Source: Escherichia phage ukendt. Taken from it: a stretch of 64,000 nt of DNA. The notes beneath the pieces are model-generated. The model searched no databases. It worked only from the letters and a program-made list of their open reading frames with translations, and was not told the origin of the DNA. Below, piece by piece: positions 21,363 to 31,858 of this stretch; within the stretch, counting starts at the first letter, position 1; each line of letters opens with the position of its first letter. Location: the sequence record NC_052661.1; one strand, 5' to 3'. The translations under genes and the position numbers were made by a program.

Positions 21363-22490
21363 TTACTCTGCTGGTTCCCAAGTGCCTGGGATCATTTCTC
21401 GAATACGAACACCAACAGGTTTTGTTGGAATACCTTCATCTGAAAATTCTTCATACTCTATTTCAACGAACTGATTAATCAAGGTAGAAGCATTCTCTGC
21501 TTTACGATAATTGATAGTCTCATGAGCATCTTTACGCATTAAGAATTCGACTACTTTACCATTTTCCATCTCACCTGTCAACACTCCATCACCATTTTTA
21601 TCACTTTTTGAATTTGTTACTTTAACTTCAAGGGTGTGGCGAGGCTTACGTTTAATAACGTCATAAGAACGTTTATCAAATTCGTAAACTCCGTTAGCAT
21701 TACGATATACTACACCTTCAGCTTTCTCAAGTAAAGCTTTTTCATAGAAAGCATCAAACTGTTCTTGGTTTTCAATATACTCTGTATGAACTACGCAAAT
21801 AAGCTCGTCAAGACCATAATCTTCAACTACTGCCTTAAGAGCAGCAAGAACATCAACACGTTTTTCAAACGGTAGATCTGGAACTGGAATATCATATACG
21901 TAATAATTCAGCAAAGGTGTATTTGCATTATGCTTCTTCCAGGCACTGTTAATTTGTTGCAGACTAAGGACACCTAACCCAGCAAACACTTCACCATCAA
22001 GAGGATGACCAACAACTTCACTAATAAAGTTTGGAATACCTTTCCAATGAGGTGGCAGGTTATACACTTCCCCAGCTTTTGATAAACACTCTCCTTTCAT
22101 GTTAATCATAGAACGTAACCCGTTCAGTTTGTATTGTGCATAACCAGGGAACACAACCCTTTCAGGATAATCTTTATAATCCTGGCATTTCATTGGTGTG
22201 GAAGGAACATGGTTTTCAGCTTCTTCTTTTGTTTTATAATAGCCATTCTTTAACTGTTTTGTCCATTTGGCAAAAGCTTCAAGTTCAGCTTGTTCTTCCG
22301 GTGTTGTTTCATTGGAACGACCAATGTTTTTTGCTTCTGCTGTATAAGATTTTTCTGTGATTTTTCCACCTACTCTTCCATGAGCTACAGTAACAACTGC
22401 ACCATCTGTATACACTGTCCACTGTTTAAGTTTTCCTTTTGAATCTTTACCATACAGCGTTTGATTTGTTTGTTGCATCAGTCCTCCCAT
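21363..22490 (-). CDS. ATP-dependent polynucleotide ligase (covalent nucleotidyltransferase; RNA- or DNA-ligase)
   Basis: motif I YKLNGLR (KxNG), motif III LDGEVF, motif IV EGVVYR, motif V DVIKRK; 375 aa. Confidence 0.6.
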   Translation of the reverse strand: MGGLMQQTNQTLYGKDSKGKLKQWTVYTDGAVVTVAHGRVGGKITEKSYTAEAKNIGRSNETTPEEQAELEAFAKWTKQLKNGYYKTKEEAENHVPSTPMKCQDYKDYPERVVFPGYAQYKLNGLRSMINMKGECLSKAGEVYNLPPHWKGIPNFISEVVGHPLDGEVFAGLGVLSLQQINSAWKKHNANTPLLNYYVYDIPVPDLPFEKRVDVLAALKAVVEDYGLDELICVVHTEYIENQEQFDAFYEKALLEKAEGVVYRNANGVYEFDKRSYDVIKRKPRHTLEVKVTNSKSDKNGDGVLTGEMENGKVVEFLMRKDAHETINYRKAENASTLINQFVEIEYEEFSDEGIPTKPVGVRIREMIPGTWEPAE

Positions 22491-23232: not shown

Positions 23233-23637
23233 TTATTGAAGTTTAAGTGAACCACGAAGACGTTTCTCTTGCTGATCACGGATATATTGTGGAACCTCGT
23301 GAATTGAATCATTACCGTGCCTATTTTCAACAACTAAAGAGATAACTTGATAACCAAACTCTTCAGCAAGAGCTAGATAAGGTTTAAGTTCTTTCTCTGT
23401 GGTTGAAGTATTAGAAACAATAATCTTGTTAAGATTAGATGCCATAGCATCACGAACAATACCCTGACACCATGCGTGTGCTTTACCTACATTTTCTGGC
23501 TTCCAATCGTAAACACCACTCTCTGTGTAATGATATTGATCTGCCTCACAGATAGGCCAATAACCTTCAGAAATAATTTCTGCTACTGTAGATTTACCAG
23601 CACCTGAAACGCCACGTAAAATGATAAGTTGTTTCAT
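23233..23637 (-). CDS. polynucleotide 5'-kinase (Pnk-type P-loop kinase domain)
   Basis: P-loop GVSGAGKST; KIIVSNTSTTEKE parallels T4 Pnkp kinase VIISDTNLNPERR; TAATG overlap with ligase stop. Confidence 0.65.
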   Translation of the reverse strand: MKQLIILRGVSGAGKSTVAEIISEGYWPICEADQYHYTESGVYDWKPENVGKAHAWCQGIVRDAMASNLNKIIVSNTSTTEKELKPYLALAEEFGYQVISLVVENRHGNDSIHEVPQYIRDQQEKRLRGSLKLQ

Positions 23638-24570
23638 TTATCCTCCAAAAAAGTTTTCGATTTTTTCACGTCGCTCTTGCTGATTTAAAGCAGCCCATTG
23701 AATCTTCGTAAAATTATTTCGAATCCATTCTAACAAAGCGTAATATTCTTCGTCAACCATTTGTTTGGCATTTTTTGGATTATCCCAAATCAGATCCCAC
23801 TTTTTATCTCCACCGCGCATAAGAAACTTCTTAGTAAGATAGTGTGGTGATTTAATTTTTAAAAGTAAGTTGAACGGATAGTTTGTTTCACGAACTACAA
23901 ACCCTTCGTGTTTACAATGTTTAGACATTTCAACAACATCTGAAAACTTAACCATTGGATGAACTTCAGGACGCTTAAATTTGGTGACAGAAGCAATTCC
24001 ATCAAGAGCACCTTCAGGTAACATAAAACTTGTCCCATCAGGATTTTGAATTCTGGCACCAATTAAGTATGCACCTGGTTCTTCTTCGACAATATGCGGA
24101 TCAGAAGGATCACAGATTTCAAAAAGGAAAGTTGCTTTTGCGCTCTCTGTCCATTTGATGAAATGTTCTATGTCATCACACTCTGAAACAATATGATTCT
24201 TTGCAATACTTGCAAAATCTGATTCAAGGCTTCCTGTTGTCGATACAATAAGTTGACCTTTATATACACCTACAGAGGCCATAAAACCATTTACTTTACG
24301 AACCACATCTACAAGTTCATCCGCTGGTAGATCTGTGCCATTCTCAAAACGATTAAAAATCTTAGTGAAAGGCCAAATAACAACATTGTCATCAGCATCA
24401 ACAACGATTCCGCGACATTCTAGAAGACGAGAATCAATGCTCCATAAGTTATCCCAGAAAACTTTGTTCTTATACTTAAGAACAGATAGACCAGAATACT
24501 CTCCTTCTTTATATGTTTTCTTATGAACTAAACCTTTTTCAACCAAATCGTCGCAATTAAATTTAGTCAC
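23638..24570 (-). CDS. RNA ligase, Rnl1 family
   Basis: LLECRGIVVDADDN vs T4 Rnl1 ALECRGIMFEMDGE; motif I RKVNGFMASV vs TKEDGSLVST; PFTKIFN vs PMEKFFN; GTG start. Confidence 0.75.
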   Translation of the reverse strand: MTKFNCDDLVEKGLVHKKTYKEGEYSGLSVLKYKNKVFWDNLWSIDSRLLECRGIVVDADDNVVIWPFTKIFNRFENGTDLPADELVDVVRKVNGFMASVGVYKGQLIVSTTGSLESDFASIAKNHIVSECDDIEHFIKWTESAKATFLFEICDPSDPHIVEEEPGAYLIGARIQNPDGTSFMLPEGALDGIASVTKFKRPEVHPMVKFSDVVEMSKHCKHEGFVVRETNYPFNLLLKIKSPHYLTKKFLMRGGDKKWDLIWDNPKNAKQMVDEEYYALLEWIRNNFTKIQWAALNQQERREKIENFFGG

Positions 24571-24571
24571 A

Positions 24572-25123
24572 TTACTCTCCTTTGATTATTTTGTGATGGT
24601 CTACAGTCACGATATCTCGTTTACTCATCATAGAAATTATCTCATCAAAATGCAAGATTTTTCCGTGTGCATCCCAACCCACATCTAACATTTTACCATA
24701 AGCTTCATCAGGGAAAGATCCGTGGGAATGCCCATGTAGCATGATTGATCCACGACCTTGTTTATTCCAGGAGGCAATAGGGTAATGACTTAAGACGAAG
24801 AACAGCTTCTGGTATTTCACTTCGTCATAATACACCACTTCGCCATACTCTGCAAGCACTTCTCGGTGTTTGCTGTAGTCATGGTTCCCAACACAGTAGG
24901 TGATATCTCCTTGGAGACGGGAAGCAATTTTACGGGTATCTTCTTCAGTTCCGAAACAGAAGTCGCCCAAATGCCACATCTTAACACCAGGAGTAGTAGC
25001 ACATTTGTTCCATGCTTCGATCAAGGCTTCTGTCATGTGGTCCATATCTTCCCACGGACGATATTCAGGAGCAAACTCTCGAATACGTTTATGCATAAAA
25101 TGCAAATCGCTTGTAATAAACAT
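24572..25123 (-). CDS. calcineurin-like metallophosphoesterase (candidate RNA 2',3'-phosphoesterase)
   Basis: SDLHF (DxH), LGDF (GD), GNHDY (GNHD), LHGHSHG; 183 aa; separated from ligase stop by 1 nt. Confidence 0.7.
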   Translation of the reverse strand: MFITSDLHFMHKRIREFAPEYRPWEDMDHMTEALIEAWNKCATTPGVKMWHLGDFCFGTEEDTRKIASRLQGDITYCVGNHDYSKHREVLAEYGEVVYYDEVKYQKLFFVLSHYPIASWNKQGRGSIMLHGHSHGSFPDEAYGKMLDVGWDAHGKILHFDEIISMMSKRDIVTVDHHKIIKGE

Positions 25124-29511: not shown

Positions 29512-29541
29512 TTGACAAACGTATCCTTCATATGTTAGGAT
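29512..29541 (+). promoter_or_regulatory. promoter TTGACA-N18-TAGGAT with extended TG
   Basis: ctaTTGACAaacgtatccttcatatgtTAGGAT; upstream of the tRNA array leader. Confidence 0.4.
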
Positions 29542-29751: not shown

Positions 29752-29826
29752 GGCCCTGTAGCTCAATGGGAGAGCTGTCGGCTCATAACCGATAGGTAGC
29801 TGGATCGAAACCAGCCAGGGCCACCA
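29752..29826 (+). tRNA. tRNA-Met/Ile2 (anticodon CAT)
   Basis: manual cloverleaf: acceptor GGCCCTG/CAGGGCC, D-stem GCTC/GAGC, anticodon loop CTCATAA, encoded CCA; acceptor resembles tRNA-Ile2. Confidence 0.75.
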
Positions 29827-29828
29827 AC

Positions 29829-29903
29829 GTCTTTATGGTGTAATGGATAGCACAGGAGTCTTCTAAACTCTTAGTCAAGGTTCGATTCCTTGTAAAGACA
29901 CCA
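29829..29903 (+). tRNA. tRNA-Arg (anticodon TCT)
   Basis: acceptor GTCTTTA/TAAAGAC, anticodon loop CTTCTAA, T-arm CAAGG-TTCGATT-CCTTG, CCA. Confidence 0.75.
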
Positions 29904-30099
29904 GAACATTTTAACATGAATTAGCTCAAGTGATTTGAACCCACTACTGATCATGGTGGCAGAGAATGAGGTAAGTATGTCAGACATTATAAACAAAGGC
30001 CACGGTTATATTAGAAGACATAAATGCTCGAAGAGCACCGTTCGCTGAGAACGGGGGTTGGTGGAGTCACCATTCATGGTAAAATGTTTTAAAAAACTA

Positions 30100-30128
30100 T
30101 TGACAACTAACACTATTTTATGTTAGAT
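30100..30128 (+). promoter_or_regulatory. promoter TTGACA-N18-TAGATT with extended TG
   Basis: ctaTTGACAactaacactattttatgtTAGATT; upstream of the tRNA-Ser genes. Confidence 0.45.
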
Positions 30129-30137
30129 TATAAGCAT

Positions 30138-30228
30138 GGAAGGGCAAATCGACGTGGCGACGAAAACGGTCTTGAAAACCGCCGAGCTTGAAAGAGCCTT
30201 GGGAGTTCGACTCTCCCTCCTTCCGCCA
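30138..30228 (+). tRNA. tRNA-Ser (anticodon TGA), class II
   Basis: anticodon arm ACGGT-CTTGAAA-ACCGC and long variable arm as in E. coli tRNA-Ser(UGA); 3' end TCCTTCC-G-CCA; D-region irregular. Confidence 0.6.
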
Positions 30229-30232
30229 GATT

Positions 30233-30318
30233 GGTAGATTGGTGAAATGGTAGCCACGACAGTTTGCTAAACTGTAGTCGGAAACGGCGTGTAGGTTCGA
30301 GTCCTACATCTACCGCCA
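30233..30318 (+). tRNA. tRNA-Ser (anticodon GCT), class II
   Basis: acceptor GGTAGAT/ATCTACC, anticodon arm ACAGT-TTGCTAA-ACTGT, long variable arm, G73, CCA. Confidence 0.75.
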
Positions 30319-30448
30319 AGTTCTTTTTAATGTAGCTTACTTTAGCAGAGTAAATCTTCGGCAAGTGGCGGTAACCACTTTACCGATACCTCATAGTTAG
30401 TGGTGTGAACACTGGCTATTTTAAAAAGAATTTAAATATTAGTATTTA

Positions 30449-30536
30449 GGTGAGTTAATTCCGTAGGGGTAGCGGGGCAGACTGTAAATCTGTTATCATT
30501 GCGATTCGGGTGGTTCGACTCCATCACTCACCACCA
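30449..30536 (+). tRNA. tRNA-Tyr (anticodon GTA), class II
   Basis: acceptor GGTGAGT/ACTCACC, anticodon arm GCAGA-CTGTAAA-TCTGT (as E. coli tRNA-Tyr), long variable arm, A73, CCA. Confidence 0.7.
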
Positions 30537-30542
30537 AATTAA

Positions 30543-30628
30543 GATGAGTTGGCTGAATGGTTTAAGCGGCGGACTGTTAATCCGTGTTCGAAAGAACAAT
30601 ATAGGTTCGAATCCTATACTCATCGCCA
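30543..30628 (+). tRNA. class-II (Ser-type) tRNA with anticodon GTT (Asn codons)
   Basis: acceptor GATGAGT/ACTCATC, 3-bp D-stem GCT/AGC, anticodon arm GCGGA-CTGTTAA-TCCGT, 15-nt variable hairpin GTTC-GAAA-GAAC, T-arm ATAGG-TTCGAAT-CCTAT, G73, CCA. Confidence 0.6.
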
Positions 30629-30635
30629 GAATTAT

Positions 30636-30712
30636 GGACTTGTAGAGTTAAGGTAAACCCCCAGTCGCCAATAGGCTTCTGGAATTGCAGGTATCGAATC
30701 CTGCCGAGTCCC
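30636..30712 (+). pseudogene. degenerate tRNA-like element
   Basis: acceptor-like GGACTTG/CGAGTCC and T-arm-like GCAGG-TATCGAAT-CCTGC, but no canonical anticodon arm and no CCA. Confidence 0.25.
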
Positions 30713-30718
30713 AGCATT

Positions 30719-30793
30719 GCTCCTATAGTATAATGGCTATTACAACGGTTTTGTAATCCGTGGATCTCTGTTCGATTCAGTGTGGGAGCACCA
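30719..30793 (+). tRNA. tRNA-Thr (anticodon TGT)
   Basis: acceptor GCTCCTA/TGGGAGC, anticodon loop TTTGTAA, T-loop TTCGATT, CCA; T.T mismatches in anticodon and T stems. Confidence 0.5.
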
Positions 30794-31065
30794 ACACAAC
30801 ATTAAGAGCACTGTGATTGATCGTCGTATCCTGTGCACAAGGTCTGCTCGAAAGACAGTGTTCTTAGTATTGTGTTGATCACAAAAAGAGTCACCCGAAA
30901 CTTGACCGGAGTAGGGTTGGATGGGGCAAAATGAGAAGCGGCTCTCCCATCGACAGCAACGAAGAATAATATTTGACTTTGGTTTTGTATTATTTAAGTT
31001 AGCTTACCGAACGTAGGGCTAGTCACCCAACGGGATACTCGTCACTGTCCCAATCAATAAAAGTC

Positions 31066-31095
31066 TTGACAACAAATAGTAAAATGTAGTATAGT
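31066..31095 (+). promoter_or_regulatory. promoter TTGACA-N18-TATAGT
   Basis: cTTGACAacaaatagtaaaatgtagTATAGT, ~12 nt before tRNA-Gly. Confidence 0.45.
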
Positions 31096-31106
31096 AAAGA
31101 TATAGG

Positions 31107-31180
31107 GCGTTCTTGGTGTAGCGGTAGCATTCCGTCCTTCCAAGTCGGCGGCACGAGTTCGATCCTCGTAGAACGCTCCA
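31107..31180 (+). tRNA. tRNA-Gly (anticodon TCC)
   Basis: acceptor GCGTTCT/AGAACGC, anticodon loop CTTCCAA, T-arm ACGAG-TTCGATC-CTCGT, CCA. Confidence 0.6.
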
Positions 31181-31277
31181 AATTATTTAATAAAGGGTTG
31201 CCAGAAAACTTTCTCTTTTACTCATGGTTTTCTCCTTCTCTCACACTTCTTCTGGTTGCCCTTCATTAAATGATTTT

Positions 31278-31353
31278 TGGTTTGTAGTGTAGTCCGGTAG
31301 CACACGACACTTTGACTGTCGTAGGTTTGGTTCAAATCCAGACAGACCAGCCA
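31278..31353 (+). tRNA. tRNA-Gln (anticodon TTG)
   Basis: U1-A72 acceptor TGGTTTG/CAGACCA (as in E. coli tRNA-Gln), anticodon arm CGACA-CTTTGAC-TGTCG, G73, CCA. Confidence 0.7.
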
Positions 31354-31358
31354 TATAA

Positions 31359-31435
31359 CGGAATTTAGCTCAGTTTGGTAGAGTGTACGCTTTGGGAGCG
31401 TATTGTCGCAGGTTCGAATCCTGCAATTCCGACCA
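31359..31435 (+). tRNA. tRNA-Pro (anticodon TGG)
   Basis: acceptor CGGAATT/AATTCCG, D-arm TAGCTCAGTTTGGTAGAG, anticodon arm TACGC-TTTGGGA-GCGTA, T-arm GCAGG-TTCGAAT-CCTGC, CCA. Confidence 0.8.
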
Positions 31436-31441
31436 ATTAAA

Positions 31442-31515
31442 TGTTTCGTAGTTCAATGGTAGAACCCACGACTGATAATCGTGAGACACAAGTTCGATTC
31501 TTGTCGAAACAACCA
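31442..31515 (+). tRNA. tRNA-Ile (anticodon GAT)
   Basis: acceptor TGTTTCG/CGAAACA, anticodon arm CACGA-CTGATAA-TCGTG, T-arm ACAAG-TTCGATT-CTTGT, CCA. Confidence 0.75.
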
Positions 31516-31517
31516 GT

Positions 31518-31587
31518 TTCCCGTTAGACTTACAGGATAAGAGTTCCACAGCTTATTGTGATGCTGGTTCGAATCCAGCACGGGATA
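31518..31587 (+). pseudogene. degenerate tRNA-like element
   Basis: good T-arm GCTGG-TTCGAAT-CCAGC and D-arm-like region, but short aberrant anticodon arm, 1-72 mismatch and no CCA. Confidence 0.25.
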
Positions 31588-31593
31588 CATAAT

Positions 31594-31672
31594 AGCGGGA
31601 TAGAGGAGTCTGGTCGTCCTCGCCAGTTTCATATGCTGGAGATCATTGGTTCAAATCCGATTCCCGCCTCCA
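31594..31672 (+). tRNA. tRNA-Met (anticodon CAT), 1-72 mismatched
   Basis: acceptor AGCGGGA/TCCCGCC (A1.C72), D-stem GAGG/CCTC, anticodon arm CCAGT-TTCATAT-GCTGG, T-loop TTCAAAT, CCA. Confidence 0.6.
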
Positions 31673-31787: not shown

Positions 31788-31810
31788 AGCCTCCTTATTG
31801 GAGGCTTTTT
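31788..31810 (+). terminator. intrinsic terminator closing the tRNA array
   Basis: AGCCTCC-ttatt-GGAGGCT followed by TTTTT. Confidence 0.7.
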
Positions 31811-31829: not shown

Positions 31830-31858
31830 TTGACTTATTATTTTTTATATGTTAAGAT
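31830..31858 (+). promoter_or_regulatory. promoter TTGACT-N17-TAAGAT
   Basis: TTGACTtattattttttatatgtTAAGAT, ~20 nt before SD of gene 31880. Confidence 0.5.

What the first reader, a model, noticed from the sequence alone, without database searches (positions are those of the whole stretch)
30543..30628. Class-II (seryl-type) tRNA carrying an Asn anticodon GUU
The gene folds cleanly as a long-variable-arm tRNA: 7-bp acceptor stem, 3-bp D-stem GCT/AGC, anticodon stem GCGGA/TCCGT with loop CUGUUAA, 15-nt variable hairpin, canonical T-arm, G73 and encoded CCA. In bacteria only Ser, Leu, Tyr and Sec tRNAs have this shape, and SerRS recognises the variable arm rather than the anticodon, yet the anticodon reads AAY (Asn) codons. 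The loop differs by one base from the Ser(GCU) loop CUGCUAA. It is either an anticodon-mutated Ser tRNA, a decoy, or a deliberate Asn-to-Ser mistranslating tRNA.
Basis: seen in the sequence. Interest (0 to 1): 0.65.

Follow-up and report, generated by a model that had tools for sequence, protein, structure and literature searches.

The report
Long-armed asparagine tRNA of phages
This phage gene is a real asparagine tRNA with an extra hairpin arm that cellular asparagine tRNAs never have; the same odd shape recurs in hundreds of unrelated phages, so it is a conserved viral tRNA design and not a mutated serine tRNA.

Summary
Window 30543-30628 (+) is an 86-nt tRNA with anticodon GUU, G73, encoded CCA and a 15-nt variable region (4-bp stem, GAAA loop, 3 unpaired nt), as called by ARAGORN, Rfam (62 bits) and RNAfold. 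The window is a Phapecoctavirus (E. coli myophage).

The "seryl-type / mutated Ser tRNA / Asn-to-Ser mistranslator" reading is not supported:
- The same long-armed tRNA-Asn(GUU) occurs in T5-like, T4-like, Vequintavirinae, Stephanstirmvirinae and jumbo phages, in 113 IMG/VR contigs, and in mobile tRNA arrays of bacteria. No relative examined carries GCU.
- Positions 26-43 are identical to E. coli tRNA-Asn.
- The AsnRS identity set (G34 U35 U36 + G73) is conserved.
- The serine acceptor marks G2:C71 and A3:U70, near-invariant in co-resident phage tRNA-Ser, are absent.
- The arm is short with a 3-4 nt 3' linker, closest to the tRNA-Tyr pattern among the class-II tRNAs compared, not the tRNA-Ser pattern.
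- The hairpin covaries strongly.

Most likely it is an Asn-charged tRNA that supplies an Asn-rich phage proteome. Its reshaped body may help it escape host tRNA nucleases such as PARIS AriB; that step is inferred, not shown. I found no paper describing this class. Charging by SerRS cannot be excluded without biochemistry.

The parts
30543..30628 (+). tRNA-Asn(GUU), 86 nt, class-II shape, CCA encoded
   Evidence: ARAGORN; Rfam tRNA 62.1 bits; RNAfold MFE cloverleaf; 100% identical in phages ESCO13 and iGC_PHA_EC001
30543..30549 (+). acceptor stem 5' strand GAUGAGU (G1:C72, A2:U71, U3:A70); pairs with 30618-30624
   Evidence: all 7 pairs show compensatory changes among 10 phage homologs
30552..30567 (+). 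D arm: 3-bp stem GCU/AGC (C11:G24) with a 10-nt loop GAAUGGUUUA
30568..30585 (+). G26 plus anticodon stem-loop GCGGA-CUGUUAA-UCCGU; identical over all 18 nt to E. coli tRNA-Asn; anticodon GUU at 30576-30578
   Evidence: one search compared with the E. coli tRNA-Asn sequence verified in 5425 genomes
30586..30597 (+). variable-arm hairpin GUUC-GAAA-GAAC (4 bp, GNRA tetraloop)
   Evidence: Covariation: 4/4 pairs with changes on both sides, 0/500 shuffles reach the observed score; RNAalifold predicts the hairpin independently; 51 distinct stem sequences in the family
30598..30600 (+). 3-nt unpaired linker AAU between the variable hairpin and the T stem (3-4 nt in 67/90 family members; 0-1 nt in most tRNA-Ser)
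30601..30617 (+). T arm AUAGG-UUCGAAU-CCUAU
30618..30628 (+). acceptor 3' strand ACUCAUC, discriminator G73 (30625), CCA (30626-30628)
   Evidence: G73 in 84/90 family members
30100..30129 (+). promoter-like site TTGACA-18-TAGATT (TG-extended) heading the sub-array Ser(UGA)-like / Ser(GCU) / Tyr / Asn / tRNA-like / Thr
   Evidence: consensus match only; the number of such sites is not above the shuffle expectation
30449..30533 (+). adjacent upstream tRNA-Tyr(GUA), class II; acceptor GGUGAGU differs from the Asn tRNA only at pair 2:71; anticodon arm differs at pair 29:41 and at nt 36
   Evidence: Rfam tRNA 39 bits; sequence; annotated tRNA-Tyr in phAPEC8
30719..30793 (+). downstream tRNA-Thr(UGU), same transcription direction (context)

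Best explanation
It is a functional asparagine tRNA. It belongs to a widespread lineage, or convergent set, of tRNA-Asn(GUU) genes carried by phages and mobile elements that have an extra hairpin in the variable region.

Proposed mechanism, with status of each step:
1. The gene is transcribed as part of the phage tRNA array (inferred).
2. It is processed to an 86-nt tRNA with a genome-encoded CCA (the CCA is shown by sequence).
3. Its anticodon stem-loop is identical to the host's, so the host enzymes that act on that part should treat it like host tRNA-Asn: Tgt for Q34, the t6A37 machinery, and the anticodon-binding domain of AsnRS (inferred).
4. AsnRS charges it with Asn through the known identity set G34-U35-U36 + G73 (inferred from sequence; not shown).
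5. It decodes AAC/AAU, which make up 5.7% of codons in this AT-rich phage (codon count shown).
6. The extra arm and the non-host body (acceptor stem, D arm) change the molecule's shape and surface away from the anticodon. This plausibly lets it escape host proteins that recognise host tRNA-Asn as a whole, above all defence nucleases such as PARIS AriB, which cleaves E. coli tRNA-Asn at 40|41 and also needs contacts outside the anticodon arm. This step is the least certain and is inference only.
For: Shape and conservation:
- The same architecture with GUU occurs in phages of Demerecviridae, Straboviridae, Vequintavirinae, Stephanstirmvirinae and Alcyoneusvirus and in a Pseudomonas jumbo phage.
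- 232 phage records hold a near-full-length homolog of the window gene, and 546 hold one of the CC31 version.
- 113 IMG/VR contigs yield 90 unique sequences.
- Between the window and phAPEC8 only two unpaired positions differ.

The hairpin is selected as a structure:
- 4/4 pairs show double changes, 0/500 shuffles reach the observed score, and slid controls collapse.
- RNAalifold finds the hairpin de novo.

Asn identity:
- GUU is present in 90/90 and G73 in 84/90.
- Positions 26-43 are identical to E. coli tRNA-Asn.
- E. coli Asn identity is the anticodon plus G73 and can be transplanted into another tRNA body (review PMC9976931).
- 61/90 members have U1:A72, as bacterial tRNA-Asn does.
- Family bodies classify as class-I Asn in 45/92 cases and as Ser in 2/92.

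Demand: Asn codons are 56.8 per 1000 in 55 window ORFs, against roughly 39 per 1000 in E. coli (own knowledge).

Defence context:
- PARIS AriB depletes and cleaves E. coli tRNA-Asn(GUU). T5 tRNA variants rescue. Putting the E. coli anticodon stem-loop into T5 tRNA-Lys did not restore cleavage, so the body matters (PMC12409363).
- Bas33, which carries an intact long tRNA-Asn, needed only added tRNA-Lys to escape PARIS.
- The window also encodes an Rnl1-type RNA ligase with an adjacent kinase and phosphatase, which looks like a tRNA-repair module.

Enrichment in viruses:
- About 9% of viral tRNA-Asn genes with this stem-loop are long-armed, and 18% of those in arrays.
- About 2% of other isotypes have long arms.
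- The form is essentially absent from bacterial chromosomes.
Against: No charging, expression or cleavage data exist for this tRNA or any long-armed homolog.

AsnRS is a class IIb synthetase. That group approaches tRNA from the variable-loop side (own knowledge, from AspRS complexes), so a long arm could hinder it.

The window tRNA has several features shared with tRNA-Ser: G73, G1:C72, C11:G24 and a 3-bp D stem with G13/A22. This phage's own tRNA-Ser(GCU) also has only a 4-bp arm in a 15-nt variable region. From memory, Himeno et al. 1990 found that small changes to the tRNA-Tyr arm together with G73 give serine acceptance. SerRS cross-charging is therefore conceivable.

The body-only score of the window tRNA is ambiguous: Cys 24.5, Phe 23.4, Ser 23.2, class-I Asn 17.3 bits.

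The nuclease-evasion role is untested. The AriB cleavage-site sequence U36-A-A-U-C|C41 is retained unchanged, whereas T5's own tRNA-Asn instead carries an altered anticodon stem. The main AriB targets, Lys and Thr, rarely carry long arms.
Confidence: 0.6

Rival explanations
1. Neutral or historical arm. The tRNA is an ordinary Asn-charged supplement. The extra hairpin is a tolerated insertion, or a relic of descent from a class-II tRNA such as tRNA-Tyr by anticodon shift. It spread by horizontal transfer of tRNA arrays. Covariation then reflects only the need to keep an inserted segment folded.
For: The arm geometry is closest to tRNA-Tyr among the class-II tRNAs compared: 3-4 bp stem, about 3 nt 3' linker. 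In the window the neighbouring tRNA-Tyr shares 6/7 acceptor pairs and a near-identical anticodon arm. Tyr and Asn are adjacent in several arrays. Sporadic long arms also occur in Trp, Thr, Lys, Glu and other phage tRNAs. Covariation alone does not prove that having the arm is adaptive.
Against: Across loci the long-Asn acceptor stems are no closer to co-resident tRNA-Tyr than to other tRNAs (0.33 against a 0.24-0.34 background). Long arms occur on very different bodies: U1:A72 Asn-like bodies with 4-bp D stems, and G1:C72 bodies with 3-bp D stems. That suggests either repeated gain or very long retention. The frequency in Asn (9-18%) is far above that in other isotypes (about 1-2% once Ile-UAU is set aside).
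Confidence: 0.2
2. Serine-charged mistranslator. SerRS recognises the long arm and G73 and charges it with Ser, so AAY codons are partly read as Ser.
For: Class-II shape, G73, G1:C72 and C11:G24 in the window tRNA. SerRS ignores the anticodon and relies on arm and shape (PMC9976931). Ser is the third-best body score for the window tRNA. Precedents for long-armed tRNAs with non-serine anticodons exist: allo-tRNAs (PMC5389517) and nematode nev-tRNAs (own knowledge).
Against: G2:C71 (75/75) and A3:U70 (68/75) of co-resident phage tRNA-Ser are absent here and are not conserved in the family. 61/90 members have U1:A72. The arm is shorter and has a 3-4 nt 3' linker instead of 0-1 nt. GUU and G73, the AsnRS identity set, are strictly kept and the anticodon arm equals the host tRNA-Asn arm; a tRNA read only by SerRS would not be expected to keep this. 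5.7% of phage codons are Asn, so appreciable Asn-to-Ser substitution would damage every phage protein. Yet the design is kept in hundreds of phages.
Confidence: 0.08
3. Decoy or sponge. The molecule mainly acts as a non-productive substrate or competitor for a host tRNA nuclease, for example PtuAB of Septu/retron-Eco7, which cuts the variable arm of tRNA-Tyr, or AriB. It would protect host or phage tRNAs rather than serve in translation.
For: It has a Tyr-like arm, and its anticodon loop is one base from that of tRNA-Tyr. [quoted passage not shown] The authors of the AriB study raise competitive inhibition by viral tRNAs as a possibility. GUC/GAC, the E. coli tRNA-Tyr arm stem, is the commonest stem in the family (8/90).
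Against: The arm sequences are highly diverse (51 distinct stems), so there is no consistent mimicry of the host tRNA-Tyr arm. Full conservation of the acceptor stem, T arm, G73, CCA and the Asn identity set points to a translating tRNA. No experimental link exists.
Confidence: 0.08
4. Pseudogene or annotation artefact with no function.
For: Some homologs are degenerate. The Bas34 copy has acceptor- and T-stem mismatches.
Against: All stems are perfect in the window copy. Compensatory changes occur in every helix among homologs. Variation within the genus is limited to unpaired positions.
Confidence: 0.02

Closest known systems
E. coli (host) tRNA-Asn(GUU), class I, substrate of AsnRS
   Same: Anticodon GUU, G73, and an identical 18-nt stretch covering position 26 and the whole anticodon stem-loop. 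It presumably has the same codons, the same synthetase and the same Q34/t6A37 modification context.
   Different: The host tRNA is 76 nt with a 5-nt variable loop, a 4-bp D stem and acceptor UCCUCUG (U1:A72). The phage tRNA is 86 nt with a 15-nt variable region containing a hairpin, a 3-bp D stem and acceptor GAUGAGU (G1:C72).
Bacterial and phage tRNA-Ser (class II, SerRS substrate)
   Same: Long variable arm, G73, 3-bp D stem with C11:G24, and U8-G9. Total length equals that of this phage's own tRNA-Ser(GCU), 86 nt.
   Different: It lacks G2:C71 and A3:U70. The arm register and linker differ: 0 nt / 4 bp / 3 nt here, against typically 1 nt / 5-7 bp / 0-1 nt in tRNA-Ser. The anticodon arm is Asn-type. 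Relatives never carry a Ser anticodon.
Bacterial tRNA-Tyr(GUA) (class II)
   Same: The variable arm has the same geometry (3-4 bp stem, about 3 nt 3' linker). The anticodon loop differs only at nt 36. Both belong to the Q34 family. The tRNA-Tyr gene is adjacent in this array and has a near-identical acceptor stem.
   Different: G73 instead of the A73 required by TyrRS, and U36 instead of A36. Across loci the family is not specifically similar to co-resident tRNA-Tyr.
Phage T5 tRNA-Lys/Thr/Asn variants that neutralise PARIS (AriB) (PMC12409363); more generally, phage tRNAs that evade anticodon nucleases
   Same: A phage-encoded copy of a tRNA that a host defence nuclease targets. It differs from the host tRNA outside the anticodon itself and sits next to tRNA-Thr(UGU) in an array.
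   Different: T5 tRNA-Asn is class I (78 nt) with substitutions and mismatches in the anticodon stem at the cleavage site. Here the anticodon arm is unchanged and the difference lies in an added arm and a different body. Resistance has not been tested.
Allo-tRNAs (Mukai et al. 2017, PMC5389517) and nematode nev-tRNAs (Hamashima et al.)
   Same: tRNAs with a long variable arm carrying anticodons of amino acids that normally use class-I tRNAs.
   Different: Allo-tRNAs have 8/4 or 9/3 acceptor/T helices and Sec-like D arms, and are read by SerRS or AlaRS. This tRNA is 7/5 and keeps the full identity set of the amino acid its anticodon specifies.

Membership tests
tRNA (general) | Cloverleaf with 7-bp acceptor, D, anticodon and T arms, a 7-nt anticodon loop with U33, and a GTTCRA T loop | tested here: met
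   ARAGORN; Rfam RF00005 62.1 bits against gathering score 29; RNAfold; RNAalifold with 18/24 covarying pairs
Class-II (long-variable-arm) tRNA shape | Variable region longer than 10 nt that forms a stem-loop | tested here: met
   15-nt region with a 4-bp stem and GAAA loop; covariation in 4/4 pairs
tRNA-Asn (AsnRS substrate, E. coli rules) | Anticodon G34 U35 U36 | tested here: met
   30576-30578 GTT; 90/90 in the family
tRNA-Asn (AsnRS substrate, E. coli rules) | Discriminator G73 | tested here: met
   G at 30625; 84/90 in the family; identity rule from PMC9976931
tRNA-Asn (AsnRS substrate, E. coli rules) | Class-I body with a 4-5 nt variable loop (true of all cellular tRNA-Asn) | tested here: not met
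   15-nt variable region
tRNA-Asn (AsnRS substrate, E. coli rules) | Actual aminoacylation with Asn | not testable with these tools
   Requires in vitro charging or charged-tRNA sequencing
Bacterial tRNA-Ser (SerRS substrate) | G1:C72 and G2:C71, conserved in bacterial tRNA-Ser (PMC9976931) | tested here: not met
   G1:C72 is present but 2:71 is A:U. G2:C71 is 75/75 in phage tRNA-Ser and 35/90 in the long-Asn family
Bacterial tRNA-Ser (SerRS substrate) | A3:U70 (E. coli and phage tRNA-Ser) | tested here: not met
   U3:A70 here; A3:U70 is 68/75 in phage tRNA-Ser and 11/90 in long Asn
Bacterial tRNA-Ser (SerRS substrate) | Long arm with Ser-type geometry (mostly >=5 bp, 0-1 unpaired nt before the T stem) | tested here: not met
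   4 bp and 3 unpaired nt here. In the family 3-4 bp in 76/90 and a 3-4 nt linker in 67/90. In tRNA-Ser >=5 bp in 56/75 and 0-1 nt in 61/75. Caveat: this phage's own tRNA-Ser(GCU) has a 4-bp arm with a 2-nt linker
Bacterial tRNA-Ser (SerRS substrate) | G73 and C11:G24 | tested here: met
   G73 is shared with the Asn identity set, so it does not discriminate
Bacterial tRNA-Ser (SerRS substrate) | Orthologs carry serine anticodons | tested here: not met
   All homologs carry GUU
Bacterial tRNA-Tyr | A73 and anticodon GUA | tested here: not met
   G73 and GUU; phage tRNA-Tyr has A73 in 43/44
Allo-tRNA (Mukai 2017) | 8/4 or 9/3 acceptor/T-stem configuration | tested here: not met
   7/5 configuration
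Nuclease-evading phage tRNA (T5 anti-PARIS type) | Substitutions at or around the nuclease cleavage site (AriB: 39-41) | tested here: not met
   U36-A-A-U-C-C41 is identical to E. coli tRNA-Asn
Nuclease-evading phage tRNA (T5 anti-PARIS type) | Resistance to cleavage and rescue of infection | not testable with these tools
   Indirect only: Bas33 carries an intact long tRNA-Asn and needed only tRNA-Lys for rescue

The most novel reading that the evidence does not exclude
Long-armed tRNA-Asn(GUU) is an unrecognised additional class-II tRNA family, specific to phages and mobile tRNA arrays. Its extra arm is a purpose-built handle. One version is that the arm makes the tRNA invisible to shape-reading defence nucleases, or makes it a bait for them, while AsnRS still charges it. 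The more radical version is that it gives the tRNA dual AsnRS/SerRS identity, so that phages deliberately blur AAY decoding during infection.
Probability: 0.3. Interest if true: 0.85.

Novelty: new variant of a known kind. Interest (0 to 1): 0.62.

Why it matters
Textbook rules say that in bacteria only the Leu, Ser, Tyr and Sec tRNAs carry a long variable arm. Here a conserved, covarying long arm sits on tRNA-Asn in hundreds of cultured phages and in many metagenomic viruses and mobile tRNA arrays. These include T5-like and T4-like phages that are widely used in laboratories. Bacterial chromosomes essentially lack it.

If AsnRS charges this tRNA, it shows that a class IIb synthetase tolerates a class-II tRNA shape. 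It would also give a ready-made natural scaffold for engineering orthogonal tRNAs.

If the arm serves evasion of tRNA-directed immunity (PARIS, Septu/retron PtuAB and others), it would be a second route of escape, by changing shape rather than by mutating the anticodon loop or stem. That idea can be tested directly with existing phage collections and defence-system collections.

In practice, annotators should not flag such genes as pseudogenes or as isotype mismatches.

Tried and rejected
(1) Recent anticodon mutation of tRNA-Ser. Rejected: all relatives carry GUU and the stem-loop equals host tRNA-Asn.

(2) Equivalence with the experimentally studied T5 tRNA-Asn. Rejected: T5's gene is a 78-nt class-I tRNA with a mismatched anticodon stem. 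Most other T5-like phages do carry the long form.

(3) Recent duplication of the neighbouring tRNA-Tyr. The window pair looks similar, but across loci acceptor identity to co-resident tRNA-Tyr is at background level.

(4) A link to a phage YqeY/GatB-like 'tRNA amidotransferase' (T5.081). No homolog in the window; only one hit among all fetched loci.

(5) General tendency of phage tRNAs to have long arms. Only partly true: other isotypes have long arms in 14/601 cases, half of them Ile(UAU), against 9-18% for Asn.

(6) Literature. Ten full-text searches found no description of a long-armed tRNA-Asn. The classic identity papers (Himeno 1990, Normanly 1992) are not held and are cited from memory only. 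The supplement of the AriB paper is not held.

The long/short ratio therefore comes from an 80-contig sample, not a full census.

(8) My scan pattern fixed the stem-loop as CGGACTGTTAATCCG, so homologs with other anticodon stems were not counted (for example Proteus phage RP7 and Bas34).

(9) ARAGORN's own bracket strings for variable arms were inconsistent. I replaced them with an explicit hairpin search.
Full report
**What is there**

The window is about 98% identical to Phapecoctavirus genomes (Stephanstirmvirinae; ESCO13 and phAPEC8-like E. coli myophages of about 150 kb). Positions 29752-31672 hold a + strand tRNA array. ARAGORN finds ten tRNAs in it. One is tRNA-Asn (gtt), 86 nt, at 30543..30628. 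Rfam's tRNA model matches at 62.1 bits (gathering score 29) with a 12-nt insertion in the variable region.

ARAGORN's drawing and the RNAfold minimum-energy structure agree on the fold:
- 7-bp acceptor stem GAUGAGU/ACUCAUC
- U8 G9
- 3-bp D stem GCU/AGC
- anticodon arm GCGGA-CUGUUAA-UCCGU
- variable hairpin GUUC-GAAA-GAAC followed by the unpaired nucleotides AAU
- T arm AUAGG-UUCGAAU-CCUAU
- G73 and a genome-encoded CCA

**The key new fact: the shape is conserved across phages**

BLAST of the 86-nt gene against 50,697 phage records finds 232 near-full-length matches. Regions fetched from unrelated phages all contain an 84-87-nt tRNA-Asn(GUU) with a variable hairpin:

| Phage | Group |
|---|---|
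| SB9, Bas33 | T5-like (SB9 Epseptimavirus, Bas33 Tequintavirus) |
| RP7 | Novosibvirus |
| CBH8 | T4-like Winklervirus |
| CC31 | T4-like Karamvirus |
| KPP-1, pEp_SNUABM_01 | Vequintavirinae |
| SD2 | Justusliebigvirus |
| Muenster | jumbo Alcyoneusvirus |
| 2PS | Pseudomonas jumbo phage |

.

The CC31 version alone has 546 full-length homologs among cultured phages. A pattern scan of IMG/VR, using the Asn stem-loop plus a long spacer before the T loop, returns 113 contigs and 90 unique sequences of 82-91 nt.

In 185,579 bacterial and archaeal species genomes the same pattern gives 48 hits. Many are class-I false positives. The true long-armed genes (17 called at >=83 nt) mostly sit in large tRNA arrays: Micromonospora/Verrucosispora with more than 30 tRNAs, Methyloprofundus, Bacteriovoracales, Agromyces and a Bacilli MAG.

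In an unselected sample of 80 viral contigs carrying the stem-loop, 7 tRNA-Asn genes are long and 63 are short. Among those lying in arrays of at least 4 tRNAs the split is 6 long to 28 short. Long variable arms in isotypes other than Ser, Leu, Tyr and Asn occur in 14/601 tRNAs, and half of those are Ile(UAU).

**The hairpin is under structural selection**

Among 90 unique family members, 92% have a stem of at least 3 bp, against 58% of shuffled sequences. There are 51 different stem sequences.

I aligned 32 members that have a 15-nt variable region. All four hairpin pairs show changes on both sides. Overall 96% of cells are paired, against 74% in shuffles. 0/500 shuffles reach the observed covariation score, and sliding the 3' partners by 1-3 columns collapses pairing to 31-43%. 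RNAalifold on ten full-length genes from cultured phages predicts the cloverleaf plus the variable hairpin by itself, with 18/24 pairs covarying.

Within the genus, the phAPEC8 copy differs from the window copy at two positions. Both are unpaired: one in the linker and one in the T loop.

**Which amino acid?**

The evidence favours Asn.

1. GUU is present in 90/90 and G73 in 84/90 family members. These four nucleotides are the E. coli AsnRS identity set, and they can be transplanted into another tRNA body (PMC9976931).
2. Window nucleotides 26-43 (GGCGGACUGUUAAUCCGU) are identical to E. coli tRNA-Asn. I verified that sequence at 100% identity in 5425 of 5426 E. coli genomes.
3. 61/90 members have U1:A72, and many have the UCC...GGA acceptor end of bacterial tRNA-Asn.
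4. I built position-specific scoring from about 2,300 phage tRNAs, excluding the anticodon arm, D loop and variable region. It assigns the long-Asn bodies to class-I tRNA-Asn in 45/92 cases, to Ser in 2/92, and to Tyr and Leu in 1/92 each.
5. The serine marks are missing. In the 75 tRNA-Ser genes of the same loci G2:C71 is 75/75, A3:U70 is 68/75 and G1:C72 is 70/75. The window tRNA has A2:U71 and U3:A70. Across the family the figures are 35/90 and 11/90.
6. The arm geometry differs from tRNA-Ser. Long-Asn arms have 3-4 bp stems (76/90), tetraloops (68/90, of which GAAA 45) and 3-4 unpaired nt before the T stem (67/90). tRNA-Ser has stems of at least 5 bp in 56/75 and 0-1 unpaired nt in 61/75. 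The long-Asn geometry is closest to tRNA-Tyr (3-4 bp in 36/44, 3-nt linker in 25/44).
7. Asn codons make up 56.8 per 1000 in 55 window ORFs. Substantial Asn-to-Ser substitution would hit every phage protein.

Caveats remain. The window tRNA, like other enterobacterial-phage versions, has G1:C72, C11:G24 and a class-II-type 3-bp D stem. Its body-only score is ambiguous: Cys 24.5, Phe 23.4, Ser 23.2 and class-I Asn 17.3 bits. With the anticodon stem included, class-I Asn is top at 34.2 bits. This phage's own tRNA-Ser(GCU) has only a 4-bp arm. From memory, Himeno et al. 1990 reported that small changes to the tRNA-Tyr arm together with G73 create serine acceptance. Some SerRS charging therefore cannot be excluded without biochemistry.

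**Why an extra arm?**

This part is inference. Host tRNA-Asn(GUU) is a documented target of antiphage immunity:
- T5 tRNA-Lys, Thr and Asn together neutralise PARIS.
- The AlphaFold3 model places one AriB monomer on the anticodon stem and the other on the D loop.

T5's own tRNA-Asn is class I with a disrupted anticodon stem. It represents a different solution from the long-armed form. The long-armed form keeps the host stem-loop, which AsnRS, Tgt and the t6A enzymes would be expected to need (own knowledge, not tested here). It changes the D arm, the acceptor stem and the variable region instead.

Bas33 carries an intact long tRNA-Asn and needed only added tRNA-Lys to escape PARIS. Bas34, whose copy has acceptor- and T-stem mismatches, needed all three T5 tRNAs. 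This fits the evasion idea but does not prove it.

Variable arms are themselves targets of immunity. Septu and retron-Eco7 PtuAB cut the variable arm of tRNA-Tyr (PMC13096335). That keeps a decoy role formally open.

The window also encodes, about 6 kb upstream, an Rnl1-type RNA ligase flanked by a P-loop kinase and a metallophosphatase. This looks like a tRNA-repair set and suggests that this phage lineage meets tRNA-cutting defences.

Evidence against a simple anti-AriB story:
- The cleavage-site sequence is unchanged.
- Lys and Thr tRNAs rarely carry long arms.
- The family extends to phages of Actinobacteria, Bacteroidota and others.

**Comparison with what is known**

The tRNA works, most probably, like host tRNA-Asn. 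It fails the one structural rule of cellular tRNA-Asn, the class-I shape. It resembles tRNA-Ser only in general class-II features and fails the tRNA-Ser acceptor and arm tests. It shares arm geometry with tRNA-Tyr but not A73 or the GUA anticodon. It is not an allo-tRNA, because its acceptor/T configuration is 7/5, not 8/4 or 9/3 (PMC5389517).

Ten full-text searches found no paper that describes a long-armed tRNA-Asn. GenBank records simply label it tRNA-Asn; one record labels it tRNA-Cys. A study of phage Sf14 notes only that its tRNA-Asn scores highest with the Lys isotype model. Older subscription-journal literature could not be searched.

**Verdict**

The 'seryl-type mistranslator' interpretation is unlikely. 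The gene belongs to a conserved class-II-shaped variant of tRNA-Asn, enriched in phages and mobile elements, that has apparently not been described. The most likely function is Asn decoding, with a body reshaped for reasons probably connected to host tRNA-directed defence. Interest is moderate to high because the class is broad, contradicts a textbook rule, and is immediately testable.

Noticed in passing
window 23233-25123 (-): Three adjacent ORFs: a P-loop kinase (AAA_33, 41 bits), a T4 Rnl1-type RNA ligase (PF09511, 56.8 bits) and a calcineurin-like metallophosphatase (24.3 bits, just under the cut-off). They look like a split Pnkp + Rnl1 tRNA-repair module, about 6 kb upstream of the tRNA array. 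An ATP-dependent DNA ligase lies at 21363-22490.
   Followed up: partly
window 30138-30224 (+): tRNA-like gene missed by ARAGORN. Rfam matches tRNA-Sec at 37.4 bits, below the gathering score of 47. By eye it reads as tRNA-Ser(UGA) with G1:C72, G2:C71, A3:U70, G73, CCA and an unusual D arm. Some related records annotate two tRNA-Ser genes.
   Followed up: partly
window 30449-30533 (+): tRNA-Tyr(GUA), class II, missed by ARAGORN but found by Rfam at 39 bits. Its D stem contains two G-U pairs. One related record annotates it as 'tRNA-Pseudo-GTA' and phAPEC8 annotates it as tRNA-Tyr.
   Followed up: partly
window 30636-30712 and 31517-31590 (+): Two further tRNA-sized elements inside the array. 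Each has an acceptor-like and a T-arm-like helix (the first has an 8-nt T loop, UAUCGAAU), but neither has a recognisable anticodon arm. Neither ARAGORN nor Rfam calls them. They recall the 'tRNA-like stable RNAs' annotated in T5. The first is conserved directly downstream of tRNA-Asn in Justusliebigvirus SD2.
   Followed up: no
viral loci, e.g. L009, L019, L022, L040, L094, L095 and several of L121-L240: tRNA-Ile(UAU) genes of 91-97 nt with 21-27-nt variable regions that share a CAGAUUAG/CAGAUAA-like motif, all with A73. They account for 10 of 16 Ile(UAU) calls in one locus set and 7 of the 14 long-arm cases in the other. This is a second recurrent long-armed non-canonical phage tRNA, and it recalls the nematode nev-tRNA-Ile(UAU).
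   Followed up: no
viral loci listed: Sporadic GNRA-capped variable hairpins in phage tRNA-Trp (5/39), Thr-UGU (5/50), Glu, Gly, Lys-UUU (2/69), His and others. Long arms on class-I isotypes are therefore not unique to Asn in phage arrays, only far more frequent there.
   Followed up: partly
L289 112-188 (Escherichia phage SelmaRatti = Bas34): Bas34's tRNA-Asn has the variable hairpin (GUC-GAAA-GAC). It also has U32, a mismatched T stem and a poorly paired acceptor stem, so it is probably degenerate. This may explain why Bas34 needed T5 tRNA-Asn for rescue from PARIS (PMC12409363).
   Followed up: partly
L243, L244, L251, L281 (Micromonospora/Verrucosispora); L283 (Methyloprofundus): Chromosomal arrays of 23-35 tRNA genes contain an 86-90-nt tRNA-Asn(GUU). 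The Methyloprofundus array has both a 76-nt and an 86-nt tRNA-Asn. The long-armed form thus travels with mobile tRNA array units as well as with phages.
   Followed up: partly
H109, Klebsiella phage KpnM6E1 (MT580897.1 61169-61253): A 97.6% identical copy of the CC31-type long tRNA-Asn is annotated as tRNA-Cys in GenBank. This is probably an isotype-model miscall caused by the unusual body. In my scoring Cys is also the best body-only match for the window tRNA.
   Followed up: no
window 29512-29541, 30100-30129, 31066-31095, 31830-31858 (+); terminator-like 31788-31806: Repeated promoter-like sites (TTGACA, 17-18 nt spacer, TG-extended -10) split the tRNA array into several units. A strong terminator-like hairpin closes it.
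   Followed up: no
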